Assembly: GCA_964459335.1 (NCBI GenBank)
Contig: CAYWJX010000004.1
Coordinates: 1 to 40,506, forward strand
From: an uncultured Candidatus Saccharibacteria bacterium
GTDB taxonomy: Bacteria > Patescibacteriota > Minisyncoccia > Phycocordibacterales > SBAW01
Direction of reading: 5' to 3'
DNA: 40,506 nt
The first letter of the stretch is position 1; each line of letters opens with the position of its first letter. A model generated the notes under the pieces. The model saw nothing but the letters and a program-made list of their open reading frames with translations, was not told where the DNA came from and ran no database searches. Below, piece after piece: positions 24,714 through 29,216 of the stretch. Made by a program: the position numbers and the translations under genes.

Positions 24714-24800
24714 ACATTCCGCGATAGGGCCGACGCAAGGTCGGCCTCCCGACCGAAGCGTCGGGACTCAATATTGCAGAGTGCGTACATTCCGCGATAG
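24714..24800 (+). repeat. 14-bp direct repeat ACATTCCGCGATAG enclosing a 39-bp double hairpin
   Basis: Copies at 24714-24727 and 24787-24800; GGCCGAC-GCAAG-GTCGGCC-TCCCGAC-CGAAGC-GTCGGGA at 24728-24766. Confidence 0.75.
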
Positions 24801-24862
24801 CTCAATGGTAGAGCAGCTCCCTGTTAAGGAGTTGGTTCCAGGTTCGAGTCCTGGTCGCGGAG
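24791..24862 (+). tRNA. tRNA-Asn (GTT), CCA not encoded
   Basis: Acceptor TCCGCGA/TCGCGGA, D arm GCTC/GAGC, anticodon arm GCTCC-CTGTTAA-GGAGT, T arm CCAGG-TTCGAGT-CCTGG. Confidence 0.96.
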
Positions 24863-26464
24863 CACTGTAGGATTTTCGAGGCATAAACGTTCAAAATCGC
24901 CTTGTTTATCAACGTTTTTTGGAGGTTCTAACCTTTCCTTTATCGCCATTACTTCCGGTGAGATTTTTTTCATCGGGAATAGGCATTTCTCCAAGTCAAT
25001 GCTGAGTTTTTTGTCTTTCAAGAGGAGGTTCGAACCGAGAGTCGAAAGCATCGTGCGTTTGGTCTGAAGGCTGCCGTTTTTGAAACGTATCTTCGCCTGC
25101 TCGATAAAGGTGAGCATCTCGTCGCCGGTGCGGTTCCATTGATCGACACGGTTGTCGGTTAGGTCGAGGCGTTTTTTGAAGTTGTGTTTTTCGGCAAAGT
25201 ACTCGGCTTGTTTTTTAGCAAAATCCTCGTGGGTAATCTCGCCGGAGGCCCGCATATCAAGCAGGTTGCTCAGCTTCGCCACAACGGCGTTATATGCCTT
25301 TTCCTGCGATCCTAGGACCGTTTGCTGTTCAGCTCCCTCCCGGGCGTTTTCGGCCCTAAACCACTTCATAGCAAAGCTATGGAACTCCGGCGGTATCTCG
25401 ATGCTGTCTATCTCTGCGACAACCTGTTTTTTGAACTCGCTGACCTCTATAGCGCCCTGTGTGCAAGCGGTCTTCCGGCGGTGAGTGCAATGATAGTAGA
25501 CGTAGGTGTGGATGTTGCCGTTTTGCTGCCGCTTGGTCTTGAGTTCGGCCGTCACCATTGCCCCGCAGTGGCCGCAGCGCACCATGCCGGTAAACTCAAA
25601 GAGCTGGGTCTTGGGCCGTGGCCTCCCATCGCGTCCCATGAGGGCCTGTACGCGGTCAAACTCCTCCGGGGTGACCATTGGCTCGTGGGTGCCTTGCCAC
25701 CACTGGCCAGTCCCTTTTGGGAACTCAAACATGCCGTAATAAAAGGGGTTGCGGAAAATCCAATAAATGCCACTCCGTGCGAGCTTTTTGCCTTTCTTGG
25801 TCCTCAGCCCCCACTCATTCGTCGCGATCTCGCGTATTTTGAGCGGAGAGTAGGTGCCGGTGAGCATCAACTCCCAGCACTTGCGGACGAGCACAAAACG
25901 CTCGGAGTCTTTAGGTATTTGCTTATCGCCTTTCTGCCCGTACTTGTCGTTGCCGTAGCCGATGGGCGCGAGGTTGGGCATAATACCCATCTCAGCTTTT
26001 TTCATGAGTCCGCGCTTCACGTCGACGCCTTTTTTGTCGTTCTCCATCTTCGCCTGCGTGCACTGCAGCATGAACATGAACTTATCAAAGGGCGTATTGC
26101 GGAAAGTCTGGCCCGGCGTCACTATCTCAACCAGTTTGCCGCGGTCCATACAATCAATGAGCATCGCAGAGTCGATGGCGTTGCGTGAAAGACGGTCAGG
26201 GTGCCAAGTGATGATGGCATTTATATCGCCGCGCTCAATACGCGCCACCATCTCTGAAAACTGCGCTCGCTTGCCAGTTACCTTAGCGGACTTCGACTCG
26301 CTCAAGATATTGTTTTCGTCGATCTGCACGCCGATTGACTTCGCAAGGTCACGCCCTTTGTCGAGTTGAGACTCAAGCGAAAGCACTTGCCGGTCCTCGG
26401 CCTCGCTTGATTTCCTGCAATACAGGCCGTGAATGGTCGTGATGGCGTTCGTTGTTTTTTGCAT
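24824..26464 (-). CDS. Large serine recombinase (resolvase, recombinase and Zn-ribbon domains)
   Basis: YCRKSS catalytic motif, DRLSRN, APIGY, CGHCG...YYHC, coiled coil; last residues LRDQDSNLEPTP are antisense tRNA sequence. Confidence 0.93.
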   Translation of the reverse strand: MQKTTNAITTIHGLYCRKSSEAEDRQVLSLESQLDKGRDLAKSIGVQIDENNILSESKSAKVTGKRAQFSEMVARIERGDINAIITWHPDRLSRNAIDSAMLIDCMDRGKLVEIVTPGQTFRNTPFDKFMFMLQCTQAKMENDKKGVDVKRGLMKKAEMGIMPNLAPIGYGNDKYGQKGDKQIPKDSERFVLVRKCWELMLTGTYSPLKIREIATNEWGLRTKKGKKLARSGIYWIFRNPFYYGMFEFPKGTGQWWQGTHEPMVTPEEFDRVQALMGRDGRPRPKTQLFEFTGMVRCGHCGAMVTAELKTKRQQNGNIHTYVYYHCTHRRKTACTQGAIEVSEFKKQVVAEIDSIEIPPEFHSFAMKWFRAENAREGAEQQTVLGSQEKAYNAVVAKLSNLLDMRASGEITHEDFAKKQAEYFAEKHNFKKRLDLTDNRVDQWNRTGDEMLTFIEQAKIRFKNGSLQTKRTMLSTLGSNLLLKDKKLSIDLEKCLFPMKKISPEVMAIKERLEPPKNVDKQGDFERLCLENPTVLRDQDSNLEPTP

Positions 26465-26479
26465 ATTCCTTGTTGTTTA

Positions 26480-27745
26480 TTATACCGCGCCCGGGCGTTC
26501 CGGCTCCAGCCCTACTACACCATCAATGCCGTAGGGTGCGAAAGAGTCAAGCTCGCTGTCCACTATGTCGATTATTCGCGATGGCGGCAGGTCTTGCAGA
26601 CAGAGCGCCGCATCGCGTATTTTGGCGTCGAGCCGGGTGCCGCAGGTCTTGGTGCTCCAGATCTTCTGTAGCTTCTTGCGGGCCTTGTTCGCGCCCATGT
26701 GATGCACGAGCTGCTGGATGGCAAAGGACGTGAGCGTGCGGTTAAGCGTGTGCACGTTCGACTTGTTGGCCGCCTCCCGGGTAATGAAATGGTTGAGGGC
26801 ATCCTCGGGCGTTATTTCCGTTTTGAACGCGAGCTGGTTGCCGGGGCGGCTGGTAATGTCCTTCCAGACGTAGATAAGGGCGTTTCTGCACAGCTCGTCA
26901 TTGAACAGCATCTCGAACGTGATTGGTTTCTCGCCGAGGCCGGGTATCAGACCGGAGAGGAAACGCTTGACGGCTCGCTGATCGTTGAACCGCGCCTCGA
27001 TCCGCAACACTTGCTTTTGACTGGAGAGCAGCTCGCGCATCTCGCGCTCTTTCGGCGTCTTGTTTTTATCAATCGACGCGCCGCGGTCTTTTTCTATATC
27101 GGCGAGCTTGTCGTAAAAAACAATCTGCCGGGAGGTCGTGTGAAAGTGCAGGCTCTCGCCGTGCTCGCGGTACTCGCGCATCCCGCCGTTGTCCAAGTAG
27201 TCGCGCATGTTGACCTGCATCCGCTCACCCATATCCGCCTTGTACAGCTCGCTCAATACTTCGCGTACCGTCAATGGAAACGGCAAAGCGATGTTTTTAC
27301 AGAAGTCGACTTTGGTAATGATTGCCGCTCGTATAGCCTGCTCGGTCGTTGCAATGCCCATGCGAAGCAGCCGGTCATGCAGTTTGGCGGCAACTCTGCC
27401 AAGGTGCCGTTGGCGCACTTCGTGCAGGTTCTCGCCAAAGAGCAGTTTCGGAAGCGACGCCCGTATGTGCAGATCGTGCTACAACTGATTATCGTCAAAA
27501 CGTCGATAGGCCGTCAGGGCGATGTTGGCAGCACCAGTCTTGCGCTCAAGCGTCGGGGTATTTTGGGTGTATTTTCTGTAGAGTTTCTTCATATCATAGT
27601 TGGGCGGTATTTCGTCTGCCCTTCTTATTTCAAGTGGCGGCGAAAACAGCCCGGGCGTGAGCACGATGAAAGCCGGATGTCGTATTTTAAGGTCGACGGT
27701 ATCAAGCATAGTGTCGAGCCCGCGTGCGTGCTTTGTTGAGCTCAT
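26480..27745 (-). pseudogene. Phage/plasmid replication initiator (gene II/X or Rep_trans-like) interrupted by one in-frame TAG at 27479-27481
   Basis: Track ORFs 27479-27760 and 26480-27418 share a frame; joined they read MLDTVDL...L*HDLHIRASLPKLLFGEN...IVFYDK...VLRIEARF. Confidence 0.7.
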
Positions 27746-27826
27746 AGTCGTCTCAGGCACTTACTTTGTTGTCCCTGTATACAGAGGAACCCGTCCGGGT
27801 CATCTTATTGACTAACAGAGAACCAC

Positions 27827-27856
27827 TTGACCTTCACAAAGGTGTGAGTATATAAT
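27827..27856 (+). promoter_or_regulatory. sigma70-type promoter facing the NYN 3' end, with no ORF downstream
   Basis: TTGACC-N18-TATAAT; TCACA-AAGG-TGTGA inverted repeat in the spacer. Confidence 0.5.
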
Positions 27857-27914
27857 AGAGCACATCAGACTTGAGCGGCATCTTTCGTAGGTGCCGCTCG
27901 CTGTATATATAGGT

Positions 27915-28556
27915 CTACTCCTCTTTTTCCTCCTCGTCTCGCGCGAGCCGGTGCTGTAACCGAGTGAAGTCTAAAAACTTATCTCCGGCAAACTTTTTAA
28001 TTTCTTTAGCGGTACGCGGTCCGCGCGAAAGTATCATTATTTCCTTGCCCTCTTTTCGCAAGAACTTCAACACCGGCAGAAAGTCGCCATCGCCCGAAAG
28101 GATGATTGCTCGGTCGTACTCGTCGCGGTCGCGCATCAGGTAAAAGGTCATATCGACATCGCAGTTTGCTTTGCGGCGCGGATTGCCGTCCTCGTCCTCA
28201 TACGTCTTTACCGGCTTGAGCACGAGCGTGTAGCCGAAGCTCTCCAGTTTGAGATAGAAGCGAACGCGGCGCAGGTGCCGGTCCAGCAAGAGCAGTTTTG
28301 CTTCAGTCATGTATTTACCCTTCTCGCGGATGAGATCGTCGAGATATTTTTTCAGGTCTTTAATTGGCACAGTGTCGTGCTCCAAATAGTCGAAGGGAAA
28401 GCGATGGATTTCGACTCCTCCAAAATAGTAGGTTGTTTCGACGCCGTATTTTTCGTGCAAATACTCGCGTAACTTTGCGTTATCAATGCTCCAGCCGAGC
28501 GACTTTTTGCCTCCGTAAAACAGGTTGGAGGCATCTATAAAAGCGATGGTTCTCAT
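27915..28556 (-). CDS. NYN (LabA/DUF88, PIN-like) domain protein
   Basis: IAFIDASNL, KANCDVDM, ILSGDGDF acidic motifs; TG-C-TACAAT 7 nt before ATG. Confidence 0.9.
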   Translation of the reverse strand: MRTIAFIDASNLFYGGKKSLGWSIDNAKLREYLHEKYGVETTYYFGGVEIHRFPFDYLEHDTVPIKDLKKYLDDLIREKGKYMTEAKLLLLDRHLRRVRFYLKLESFGYTLVLKPVKTYEDEDGNPRRKANCDVDMTFYLMRDRDEYDRAIILSGDGDFLPVLKFLRKEGKEIMILSRGPRTAKEIKKFAGDKFLDFTRLQHRLARDEEEKEE

Positions 28557-28718
28557 AGTGGTTATTGTAGCAGTCCTTCTTTTTTACACAAAACGCTCAG
28601 CAAAAAAGAGCGGTTACTCCATCTCCACAAGGCTCCCCCACTCGCGCACGATAGCGAAATGGTGTGCGTAAGTACTCTTAATAGCGGTTCTAACTTGGTA
28701 CAATCCGCGGAGCAATAC

Positions 28719-28746
28719 TTGACATTTATTCACATCGTGCTAATAT
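28719..28746 (+). promoter_or_regulatory. sigma70-type promoter just outside the putative attR
   Basis: TTGACA-N16-TAATAT. Confidence 0.5.
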
Positions 28747-28796
28747 AGCTTCAGCTGTATCTCAGCAGCTTGACTCATCGAACGCGGAGCATACAA

Positions 28797-29108
28797 ATGG
28801 TTAATTCCATCCCTGCCATCCGGCAAAACGCCGACGTGGCTACTGCTGTTGTCGAGAAGCACGGCAACAAGATTCATCCAATTCTTCGCCAGGCGATCGA
28901 TTCTAATTTTCGAATCGACATCGCAGAGAAGGGTGAGCTCTCGGTCGAATTCTTGCAGGGATTCTTTTCGGGTCTCATGTTCGCCAACATTTGGTTGACA
29001 GACTTAGGACGCGAAAGTACCCCACAAGGTCAATGCGTTGCCGACCTTACCGTCGAGGCGGCTCGAAAATATCTCGAGCGTATCGAAAAGGAAGTAAACG
29101 GGGTATAA
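28797..29108 (+). CDS. Hypothetical protein (103 aa)
   Basis: GGAG RBS, promoter upstream, terminator downstream. Confidence 0.6.
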   Translation: MVNSIPAIRQNADVATAVVEKHGNKIHPILRQAIDSNFRIDIAEKGELSVEFLQGFFSGLMFANIWLTDLGRESTPQGQCVADLTVEAARKYLERIEKEVNGV

Positions 29109-29134
29109 CCGCCAAATTCTCGTACAACGACCTG

Positions 29135-29160
29135 AGCTCCTGAGAAATCGGGGGCTTTTT
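29135..29160 (+). terminator. Intrinsic terminator
   Basis: AGCTCCTGA gaaa TCGGGGGCT followed by T-run. Confidence 0.65.
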
Positions 29161-29216
29161 CTTTTCCTACTTTCCTACCACGTAGGTTCGGACATCATCC
29201 GGCAGGCGGAGTTGGT

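What the first reader, a model, noticed from the sequence alone, without database searches (positions are those of the whole stretch)
24824..28714. Minimal tRNA-Asn integrative element whose recombinase C-terminus is swapped by integration
Seen: the recombinase ORF runs antisense through the tRNA 3' half and stops at the anticodon loop (...TVLR-DQDSNLEPTP*). CGCGGAGCA (tRNA acceptor 3' strand plus GCA, 24856-24864) recurs at 28706-28714. Joining the copies gives a 3850-bp circle in which the recombinase frame stays open for 30 more codons (...TVLR-GLYQVRTAIKSTYAHHFAIVREWGSLVEME*, stop at 28614-28616), ending 57 bp before the NYN ATG. The circle would be a unidirectional Rep-recombinase-NYN replicon, and the tRNA stays intact in both states. 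Established analogy: att sites inside element genes are known (SSV1 integrase, mycobacteriophage BPs repressor). Inference: two state-specific enzyme isoforms could set directionality or stability without an excisionase; none is visible here. A 9-bp repeat alone could be chance, so the open frame and intergenic position are the main support.
Basis: partly seen in the sequence, partly recalled or inferred. Interest (0 to 1): 0.9.

Follow-up and report, generated by a model that had tools for sequence, protein, structure and literature searches.

The report
Serine integrase split by own attP
A 3.85-kb mobile element sits in a tRNA-Asn gene, and its serine integrase gene runs across the recombination site, so integration cuts off a conserved 25-30-residue protein tail; hundreds of relatives share this design, which I found no description of in the papers I could search.

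Summary
A large serine recombinase (LSR) gene (24824-26464, minus strand) ends antisense inside tRNA-Asn. The 9-bp core recurs at 28706-28714. Joining the copies gives a 3850-bp circle with the frame open for 30 more codons.

Family evidence supports this:
- In 57 of 83 related loci the LSR gene overlaps a tRNA 3' end in the same register.
- The DNA left of 28706 is an attP half-site. It copies the tRNA T-arm with 5 extra bp between GGA and T(A/C)GAACC, the published LSR attP/attB offset.
- The predicted tail (..VRTAIKSTY..FAIVREW) matches the C-terminus of 15 of 120 database homologues.

So attP lies inside the integrase ORF, and integration replaces a conserved tail.

- The Rep gene has a nonsense codon (27479-27481).
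- A third 9-mer copy at 28783 is the ribosome-binding site of a neighbouring ORF.
- A second, degenerate attP arm lies at 29185-29211, probably a relic.

Whether the two isoforms control directionality is untested. I found no circular form and no empty site. This is a new variant of a known kind: a bacterial serine-recombinase counterpart of archaeal "suicidal" SSV-type integrases.

The parts
24791..24863 (+). tRNA-Asn(GTT), intact. Its T-arm and acceptor 3' strand form the B arm of attL (T-loop GGTTCGAGTCC at 24841-24851).
   Evidence: ARAGORN. In 57 of 83 related loci a tRNA 3' end sits in the same register relative to the int ORF.
24856..24864 (+). attL core: the 9-bp identity CGCGGAGCA shared with attR. 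The probable crossover lies within 24860-24862 (tRNA positions 71-73; int codon L535).
   Evidence: The identity blocks of 12 attL/attR pairs all contain int-sense coordinates 2-4. The dyad position of the GGA motifs in the P and P' arms gives the same centre (inference).
24865..24895 (+). P' arm of attL/attP. It lies inside the int coding sequence (GGATTTT at 24870-24876, which encodes ..ENP..).
   Evidence: Family consensus AAAaTCC-N5-TG.
24824..26464 (-). Large serine recombinase, integrated-state isoform of 546 aa. Residues 1-536 are element-encoded. Residues 537-546 (DQDSNLEPTP) are read from the antisense strand of the tRNA.
   Evidence: Pfam Resolvase 1.8e-19, Recombinase 9.2e-10, Zn_ribbon_recom 1.1e-9. 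PHROG integrase 2.2e-68. 3433 homologues at E<=1e-20.
24924..24933 (+). GGTTCTAACC inside int (codons R-L-E-P). This is a second copy of the attP-arm word and is constrained at the DNA level. Its role is unknown.
   Evidence: 55 of 58 loci keep GTT[A/C]GAACC here. The Leu codon is TTA in 43 of 44 cases, against 14% TTA among Leu codons of these genes overall.
26480..27760 (-). Rolling-circle Rep (Phage_CRI/G2P-like), disrupted by an in-frame TAG at 27479-27481.
   Evidence: Pfam PF05144 1.2e-7. The translation shows the stop. The stop aligns with Tyr in the uninterrupted Rep homologues of L037 and L024, the closer of which is 46% identical. The sequence is identical in the Logan assembly.
27915..28556 (-). 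NYN-domain protein, 213 aa. It would lie 57 nt downstream of the int stop in the circular form.
   Evidence: Pfam NYN 3.3e-18. NYN genes also lie next to the attP arm in L102 and L022. NYN is not a constant member of the family.
28614..28706 (-). Detached 3' end of the int ORF: 30 codons (GLYQVRTAIKSTYAHHFAIVREWGSLVEME) plus the stop at 28614-28616. It is joined to int only in the attP (circular) state, giving a 566-aa isoform.
   Evidence: It matches the native C-termini of database homologues. HMM E = 0.0028, top of 1574 segments. Against L031, the VRTAIKSTY codons differ only by synonymous changes.
28680..28705 (+). P arm of attR/attP. GGTTCTAAC at 28686-28694 is the T-loop-like zinc-ribbon-domain motif, placed 5 bp further from the core than the tRNA T-loop.
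   Evidence: Consensus of 20 P arms against 41 B arms. The published offset is bp 16-24 in attP and 11-19 in attB (PMC3783163).
28706..28714 (+). attR core: the second copy of CGCGGAGCA.
28715..29211 (+). Probable relic of an earlier element. It holds a sigma70-like promoter (28719-28746), a 103-aa ORF (28797-29108), a terminator (29134-29157) and a degenerate P arm (GGTTCGGAC 29185-29193) with the core-like GCGGAG at 29206-29211. If used, this arm would give the tail LPDDVRTYVVGK*.
   Evidence: L017 and L031 show the same layout of a complete inner arm plus a degenerate outer arm 0.5-1 kb away. The ORF has no homologue in the other loci.

Best explanation
The region is an integrated 3850-bp mobile element (24865-28714) in a Patescibacteria genome. 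It belongs to a large, undescribed family of large serine recombinases (LSRs) that integrate into the 3' ends of tRNA genes.

The enzyme reads the tRNA T-arm and acceptor strand as the B half-site. The element's P half-site copies that T-arm, with 5 extra bp between the GGA and T(A/C)GAACC motifs. This is the known LSR way of telling attP from attB. Strand exchange occurs in the acceptor stem, at window 24860-24862. The element supplies the last tRNA bases, so the tRNA stays intact.

attP lies inside the integrase ORF, about 30 codons before its stop. Only the excised or circular form can therefore encode the full 566-aa enzyme with the family's conserved tail ([VAG]LD[ED]VRTxL-x8-9-Fx[IV]Vx[TS]W). 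The integrated copy encodes a 546-aa enzyme in which that tail is replaced by 10 residues read from the antisense tRNA.

Shown by computation: the anatomy, the family-wide register, the half-site offset, and protein-level conservation of the tail.

Inferred: the crossover position; that tail loss changes enzyme behaviour; and that this particular copy can no longer replicate on its own. I rate a disabled or attenuated integrated enzyme (a lock-in, as with SSV-type 'suicidal' integrases) as somewhat more likely than a switch to excision. Replication is judged lost because Rep has a nonsense codon.
For: LSR identity: and 67 (the coiled-coil helices at 360-462 were predicted for homologue P0074).

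Size of the family: 3433 proteins and at least 551 loci in GTDB species representatives, mostly Patescibacteria.

Register: 57 of 83 loci have the int 3' end antisense over a tRNA 3' end (Gln, Asn, Ser, Gly, Arg, Lys, Glu, Asp). In every locus where the register could be measured, the tRNA starts 3 nt after the same codon.

attR sites carrying the P-arm motif were found 3.9-11 kb upstream in W, L055, L068, L022, L017, L025, L031, L043, L047 and L058.

The P arm equals the B arm plus 5 bp. This matches the ZD-motif shift published for LI integrase.

The tail is a real C-terminus. 15 of 120 homologues are called genes ending ...LDEVRTSLM..F.IVNTW. The stop follows W in 8 of 9 type-1 tails. Differences between W and L031 in VRTAIKSTY are all synonymous, and pN/pS is lowest in the coding frame. 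HMM E = 0.0028.

The tail ORF is intact at the attR of 8 divergent integrated elements. This implies selection acting through the joined state.

The left boundary is confirmed: a different LSR element occupies the same tRNA in L090 and diverges right after GCGGAGCA.
Against: - No attP junction, empty attB or circular contig for this element was found.
- The attP-form gene also occurs inside large chromosomal contigs (L059 at 4.2 Mb; L062), so the attP form does not prove a free circle.
- A second P-arm-like site 4349 bp from attL leaves the outer boundary ambiguous.
- The B' arms show no conserved motif, which is unusual for an LSR attB.
- The first tail residues (..VRT) are dictated by the DNA half-site. 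In L051 the tail is out of frame with int.
- AlphaFold gives the tail pLDDT 38-56, so there is no structural clue.
- Rep is broken, so this copy may be a fossil.
Confidence: 0.8

Rival explanations
1. The true element is 4.35 kb (24865-29211). It uses the outer P arm at 29185-29211 as attR. The 28706 site is then an internal or second attP arm, or the two attR sites are used alternately.
For: The outer site has the P-arm motif in the same register and would also keep int in frame, giving LPDDVRTYVVGK*. Its right flank (TTGGTTTATTTTT) looks like a natural tRNA trailer. The Logan contig L002 ends exactly at 24862, where attL and a GCGGAG|TT junction would diverge.
Against: The outer arm has only 6 nt of core identity and a truncated tail that lacks the F.IV..W motif. 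The inner site has 9 nt of identity and the full conserved tail. In L017 and L031 the outer arms are likewise degenerate (VGT instead of VRT), as expected for relics. The Logan contig L005 runs unbroken through both sites.
Confidence: 0.12
2. The tail swap has no functional consequence. The ORF runs across attP only because the att site happens to sit at the gene's end, and tail conservation reflects DNA constraints of the half-site.
For: VRT is the translation of GTT-AGA-ACC, the ZD-like DNA motif. The same DNA word is conserved elsewhere in the gene through codon choice. Integrated-state tails range from 1 to about 20 arbitrary residues. Some free-form tails are short or unlike the consensus (P0014, P0053, P0012). 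In L051 the tail is frame-shifted.
Against: Conservation extends 15-20 codons beyond a 25-bp half-site. It shows synonymous-only changes, a conserved F-x-[IV]-V-x-x-W end and a conserved stop position, in homologues only about 50% identical.
Confidence: 0.18
3. The 9-bp repeat is chance. The recombinase merely abuts the tRNA, and the element's ends lie elsewhere (for example at the third copy, 28783).
For: A 9-mer recurrence is expected 0.63 times per window, and 3 copies were reached in 2 of 100 shuffles.
Against: The P-arm motif, its register, the in-frame conserved tail and the family-wide pattern all point to 28706. The copy at 28783 has no P arm and overlaps the ribosome-binding site of ORF103.
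Confidence: 0.03

Closest known systems
Phage large serine integrases (LI/A118, phiC31, Bxb1, SPbeta)
   Same: The domain order is the same: Resolvase, Recombinase, then zinc ribbon with a coiled coil. The att sites are short. The zinc-ribbon motif lies 5 bp further out in attP than in attB (PMC3783163).
   Different: The target is a tRNA 3' end, read through the T-arm, and only one attB arm is conserved. attP lies inside the integrase ORF. A conserved 25-30-aa tail is lost on integration. An extra copy of the motif lies inside the gene. Hosts are mostly Patescibacteria.
SSV-type 'suicidal' tyrosine integrases of archaeal viruses and plasmids (SSV1, pT26-2; PMC7253208, PMC8371274)
   Same: The recombination site lies within the integrase ORF. 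The targets are tRNA genes. Integration partitions the gene, and the full gene exists only in the free form.
   Different: That enzyme class is unrelated (tyrosine versus serine recombinase), and the hosts are archaea. In SSV the split yields two inactive pseudogenes. Here residues 1-536 of 566 stay intact, with the catalytic and DNA-binding domains, and 56 of 57 integrated copies keep an open frame.
Integration-dependent immunity of mycobacteriophage BPs (PMC4557955)
   Same: attP lies in the 3' end of an element gene. Integration therefore changes that protein's C-terminus and creates state-specific isoforms.
   Different: The affected gene there is the repressor, which loses an ssrA-like tag, and the integrase is a tyrosine recombinase. 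Here the recombinase itself is altered, and no degradation tag has been shown.
Engineered integrase-RDF C-terminal fusions (phiC31 Int-gp3)
   Same: A polypeptide attached to the LSR C-terminus can reach the zinc-ribbon/coiled-coil hinge and reverse directionality. The fusion was used for the excisive complex. That such fusions are active is from my own knowledge of Olorunniji et al. 2017.
   Different: Those fusions are artificial and the RDF is a folded protein. Here the tail is a natural peptide of about 25 aa, and its effect is unknown.
tRNA-targeting genomic islands with tyrosine integrases (Islander/TIGER; PMC4383910)
   Same: The element integrates at a tRNA 3' end, the element restores the tRNA, and the site is a hotspot with tandem relics.
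   Different: Those integrations are ascribed to tyrosine integrases and have long identity segments. Here the identity is only 3-10 bp and the chemistry is that of a serine recombinase.

Membership tests
Large serine recombinase / serine integrase | N-terminal resolvase catalytic domain with the conserved Ser nucleophile | tested here: met
   PF00239 E = 1.8e-19, residues 14-160. R17-K18-S19 are invariant in the alignment of 20 homologues.
Large serine recombinase / serine integrase | Recombinase domain plus zinc-ribbon domain with an inserted coiled coil | tested here: met
   PF07508 and PF13408. Two long helices at 360-405 and 411-462 in the AlphaFold model of homologue P0074, pLDDT 84-92. 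This was not modelled for the window protein itself.
Large serine recombinase / serine integrase | Short attP and attB with the ZD motif shifted 5 bp between them | tested here: met
   P arm GGA-CGAAG-TTAGAACC against B arm GGA-n-TCGAACC. Reference values from PMC3783163. This was shown for one arm of each site only; the B' arm is not conserved.
Large serine recombinase / serine integrase | Catalyses attP x attB without cofactors and needs an RDF for attL x attR | not testable with these tools
   Needs recombination assays.
SSV-type suicidal integrase | Tyrosine recombinase fold and catalytic residues | tested here: not met
   The protein is a serine recombinase. It is therefore an analogue, not a member.
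SSV-type suicidal integrase | att site inside the integrase ORF, so the gene is split by integration | tested here: met
Integration-dependent isoform switch (BPs type) | Integration changes the C-terminus of an element protein | tested here: met
   The 546-aa and 566-aa isoforms differ after residue 536.
Integration-dependent isoform switch (BPs type) | The C-terminal segment is a degradation tag or otherwise changes activity | not testable with these tools
   The tail ends ..IV(N/R)(T/S)W, not the ssrA-like ..AA that I recall for such tags. AlphaFold was uninformative.
Rolling-circle Rep (Phage_CRI / G2P) | Family domain present | tested here: met
   PF05144 E = 1.2e-7. PHROG replication protein.
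Rolling-circle Rep (Phage_CRI / G2P) | Uninterrupted ORF | tested here: not met
   TAG at 27479-27481, where homologues have Tyr.
Site-specific integrative element at a tRNA gene | Flanking att sites with a shared core and an intact tRNA at attL | tested here: met
Site-specific integrative element at a tRNA gene | Related genomes with the empty site, or reads with attP/attB junctions | tested here: inconclusive
   L090 has a different LSR element at the same tRNA. L093 has tRNA-GCGGAGCA followed by a promoter and an unrelated ORF. In L117, homology to the window starts only at about 29569. The metagenome scan found no attP or attB.

The most novel reading that the evidence does not exclude
The conserved C-terminal tail is a built-in, cis-acting directionality or activity module of a serine integrase. 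The full-length enzyme, which can only be made from the circle, would integrate. The tail-less enzyme, made only from the integrated copy, would be either excision-competent without a separate RDF or switched off. The element would thus sense and record its own state through its integrase gene. Recognition of the universal tRNA T-arm would also let the family move between tRNA species by changing only a few core bases.
Probability: 0.25. Interest if true: 0.9.

Novelty: new variant of a known kind. Interest (0 to 1): 0.75.

Why it matters
Serine integrases are leading tools for inserting large DNA, and their one-way behaviour is controlled by separate, hard-to-find directionality factors. Three features of this family would matter if confirmed:
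1. An enzyme whose own gene is rewired by the reaction it catalyses would be a natural, self-contained state switch. It is directly testable with three protein versions and four att sites.
2. The family targets tRNA genes by reading the T-arm. It includes a textbook-clear natural example of the 5-bp attP/attB offset.
3. The family is abundant in Patescibacteria, where mobile elements and genetic tools are poorly known.

It also extends the 'suicidal integrase' idea from archaeal tyrosine recombinases to bacterial serine recombinases.

Tried and rejected
- Third 9-mer copy (28783): no P arm, and joining there gives ..TVLRVR*. It overlaps the ribosome-binding site of ORF103. Rejected as attR.
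- Exact-protein look-up of int: not on record. The gene caller skipped it.
- Search for the empty site through neighbouring host genes. Glyoxalase homologues led to L090 (occupied by another LSR element) and L093 (unrelated promoter and ORF after the tRNA). An ORF188 homologue led to L117 (another mobile element; homology to the window only from about 29569). No clean attB was found.
- Degenerate-pattern scan of JGI metagenome contigs for attP/attB/attL/attR. It returned only three attL sites of a relative whose int is 42% identical. The window's own contig is not in that collection.
- Circularity: none of the contigs checked for this (attP-form contigs and IMG/VR contigs) has a terminal overlap.
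- AlphaFold2 of an attP-form homologue, to see where the tail docks: tail pLDDT was 38-56, which is uninformative. No fold search was run.
- NYN as a constant partner or RDF: it recurs near the P arm in only a few elements.
- attR search by long direct repeats: this failed because the identity is only 3-10 bp. It worked once anchored on the P-arm motif.
- Closest relative L010/L008 (87% identical int): it has neither a tRNA nor a P arm after the core and has different neighbours, so it could not identify the cognate arm.
- Literature: nine full-text searches found no description of tRNA-targeting LSRs with attP inside the ORF.

Full report
**Observation.** The window comes from a 234-kb JGI metagenome contig of a Patescibacteria (Minisyncoccia-type) bacterium. 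tRNA-Asn(GTT) lies at 24791-24863. A 546-aa ORF on the minus strand (24824-26464) ends ...NPTVLRDQDSNLEPTP*, and its stop sits in the anticodon loop. CGCGGAGCA occurs at 24856-24864 and at 28706-28714. Joining the copies gives a 3850-bp circle in which the frame continues GLYQVRTAIKSTYAHHFAIVREWGSLVEME*, ending 57 nt before the NYN start. The 9-mer alone is weak evidence: 0.63 copies are expected and 3 are seen, and 2 of 100 shuffles also reached 3.

**Genes.**
- The ORF is a large serine recombinase (LSR). It hits the Pfam families Resolvase, Recombinase and Zn_ribbon_recom and the PHROG integrase family.
- The next gene (26480-27760) is a Phage_CRI/G2P-type rolling-circle Rep. It has an in-frame TAG at 27479-27481. 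Two intact homologues, the closer 46% identical, have Tyr at that position, so this is a nonsense mutation. It is present in both independent assemblies.
- The third gene is an NYN-domain protein.

**Family evidence.** The recombinase has 3433 database homologues at E<=1e-20. At least 551 loci occur in GTDB species representatives, mostly Patescibacteria. In 57 of 83 loci examined, the int 3' end overlaps the 3' end of a tRNA gene in antisense (Gln, Asn, Ser, Gly, Arg, Lys, Glu, Asp). Wherever the register could be measured it is the same...AAAATCC-N5-TG, then the antisense tRNA starting from the discriminator base. Among the 120 closest proteins:
- 56 end in tRNA-antisense tails (xDSNxx...);
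- 49 fall in an 'other/short' class; many of these stop 1-3 codons after the core, and loci with such endings overlap a tRNA in antisense, while a minority have longer unrelated tails or are truncated;
- 15 end in a different, mutually similar tail.

**att-site anatomy.** I anchored on the conserved TG and searched upstream of int. This found attR sites 3.9-11 kb away in ten loci (the window plus nine relatives), twelve attL/attR pairs in all. Each carries TG-N17-(A/C/T)GTTAGAACC.
- The consensus of 41 tRNA-side arms is ...GGA-n-TCGAACC (the T-loop in antisense).
- The consensus of 20 element-side arms is ...GGA-CGAAG-TTAGAACC.

So the P arm equals the B arm plus 5 bp. Rutherford et al. showed that LSRs distinguish attP from attB by a zinc-ribbon-domain motif at bp 16-24 in attP and bp 11-19 in attB (PMC3783163). 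The window's 28680-28705 carries this arm (GGTTCTAAC at 28686-28694). Identity between attL and attR is only 3-10 nt, but every pair shares int-sense coordinates 2-4, which correspond to window 24860-24862. The dyad position of the GGA motifs gives the same centre. I therefore place the crossover in the acceptor stem, within codon L535. This is an inference. The B' arms show no conserved motif.

**The tail.** The 15 'other' proteins end [VAG]LD[ED]VRT[SA]L-x8-9-F-x-[IVF]-[VM]-x-x-W. Examples are P0074 ..VLDEVRTSIMFNFSTKFSIVNTW and P0096 ..GLDDVRITLQRITGYSPFAIVRSW, and the pattern holds down to about 50% identity.
- The same peptide is encoded right after the core at the attR of integrated elements (W, L017, L022, L025, L027, L031, L034, L036). 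It is open in all of them, and the stop follows W in 8 of 9 type-1 tails.
- 'VRT' is simply GTT-AGA-ACC, the DNA motif. Conservation nevertheless continues 15-20 codons beyond a 25-bp half-site.
- W and L031 (whose int is 57% identical to the window's) differ in VRTAIKSTY only by four synonymous changes. pN/pS is lowest in the coding frame (0.74 against 0.97 and 1.16, with synonymous sites near saturation).
- An HMM built from ten database tails, excluding the window, ranks window segment 28739-28617 first of 1574 six-frame segments, E = 0.0028.

The family's native C-terminus therefore lies beyond attP, and integration removes it. Residues 1-536 are common to both isoforms. The integrated isoform has 546 aa and the attP-form isoform 566 aa.

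**Complications in this window.**
1. Rep is broken, so the circle would not be an autonomous replicon.
2. Right of attR lie a near-consensus promoter (28719-28746), a 103-aa ORF with no homologues in the other loci, a terminator, and a second P-arm-like site (GGTTCGGAC 29185-29193, GCGGAG 29206-29211). That site has 6 nt of core identity and a truncated tail, LPDDVRTYVVGK*. L017 and L031 show the same layout of a complete inner arm and a degenerate outer arm. I read these as relics of earlier occupants, but a 4.35-kb element that uses the outer site is not excluded.
3. The site is a hotspot. L090 has the same tRNA followed by a different LSR element that diverges right after GCGGAGCA. L093 has tRNA-GCGGAGCA-AAAGGTTGACA... 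plus an unrelated ORF. In L117, homology to the window starts only at about 29569, next to another mobile element.
4. I found no attP junction, empty site or circular contig for this element. attP-form genes also sit in large chromosomal contigs.

**Mechanism.** The steps of integration by LSR chemistry follow from the anatomy above: T-arm recognition, the 5-bp offset, and restoration of the tRNA. What the isoform change does is not known.
- The tail's conservation argues that it matters for the free-form enzyme.
- The arbitrary integrated-state tails (1-20 residues) argue that the relevant event is loss of the tail, not gain of a new one.
- The LSR C-terminus lies near the zinc-ribbon/coiled-coil hinge where directionality factors bind, and C-terminal Int-RDF fusions are used as excisive enzymes. 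A cis-acting tail that sets directionality is therefore plausible.
- Equally, a tail-less enzyme may be inactive. That would be a lock-in like the SSV-type 'suicidal' integrases (PMC7253208), and it fits the relics and the decaying Rep here.
- Against a pure pseudogene fate, 56 of 57 integrated int genes keep an open frame of at least 500 codons, although those loci were chosen as the best matches.
- AlphaFold gave no confident placement of the tail.

My split is roughly 0.45 for attenuation or lock-in, 0.3 for a directionality switch, and 0.25 for little or no effect.

**Comparison and novelty.** By every feature I could test, the protein is a member of the large serine recombinases. The design is analogous to SSV-type suicidal tyrosine integrases (att site inside the int ORF, tRNA targets) and to BPs integration-dependent immunity (a C-terminus changed by integration; PMC4557955). 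It is a member of neither. Nine full-text searches found no description of tRNA-targeting LSRs with attP inside the ORF. I rate it a new variant of a known kind.

**Unexplained.** A second copy of the P-arm word (GGTTAGAACC in int sense; window 24924-24933) lies inside int, 23 codons before the core, in 55 of 58 loci. It is kept by codon choice: the Leu codon is TTA in 43 of 44 cases, against 14% TTA among Leu codons of these genes overall. The Logan contig of the same strain ends exactly at 24862, inside the inferred crossover.

Noticed in passing
window 27479-27481 (minus strand): In-frame TAG in the Rep gene, at a position where two intact homologues have Tyr. It is identical in the JGI and Logan assemblies. 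This copy has probably lost autonomous replication.
   Followed up: yes
window 29185-29211; also L017 (about 9555 nt upstream of its attL) and L031 (about 10303 nt upstream): A second, degenerate attP-type arm lies 0.5-1 kb beyond the functional-looking attR. In the window a promoter-ORF-terminator cassette (28719-29157) lies between the two. It looks like the right end of an earlier element left behind at the hotspot.
   Followed up: partly
window 24924-24933 (GGTTCTAACC, inside int); same position in 55 of 58 loci: The DNA word of the attP arm recurs inside the integrase gene, 23 codons before the core. It is maintained by codon choice (Leu = TTA in 43 of 44 cases, against a 14% background). 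It may be an accessory binding site. No function is known.
   Followed up: partly
L002 (Logan SRR6946416), which ends at window 24862; L005 starts at window 25711: A second assembly of the same strain (100% identical) breaks exactly at the tRNA discriminator base, inside the inferred crossover region, and resumes in the middle of int. This could reflect population heterogeneity at the att site or only low coverage.
   Followed up: partly
L090 1-1043; L093 1-281: In a related genome (neighbouring glyoxalase 89% identical) the same tRNA-Asn is occupied by a different serine-recombinase element. In another sample with the same glyoxalase protein, the tRNA is followed directly by a TTGACA promoter and an unrelated small ORF. 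This tRNA is an integration hotspot.
   Followed up: partly
L009, L098-L102 (upstream of int): In several relatives examined (int 61-79% identical to the window's), a roughly 370-aa Phage_integrase-family (tyrosine recombinase) gene sits directly upstream of the serine recombinase, where the window has Rep. L102 also has an HTH_17 gene overlapping the int start. The role of a second recombinase is unknown.
   Followed up: no
L101 5583-15580; L102; L117 1-5700: Larger relatives and neighbouring islands carry defence cargo (type I restriction-modification, a FokI-like nuclease, N6/N4 methyltransferases, helicases). Element sizes found range from 3.85 to about 11 kb, and one attP-form contig reaches 20 kb.
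   Followed up: no
L051 11552-11590; L059; L062: In L051 the conserved tail is out of frame with int by 1 nt (a mutation or a sequencing error). In L059 (a 4.2-Mb Methyloligellaceae chromosome) and L062, the attP-form gene sits in chromosomal context. The attP form is therefore not always a free circle.
   Followed up: partly
window 27827-27856 (plus strand): A near-consensus sigma70-like promoter (TTGACC-18-TATAAT, 11 of 12 matches) lies in the NYN-Rep intergenic region and points against the three genes. It may drive an antisense RNA, or it may lie within the replication-origin region.
   Followed up: no
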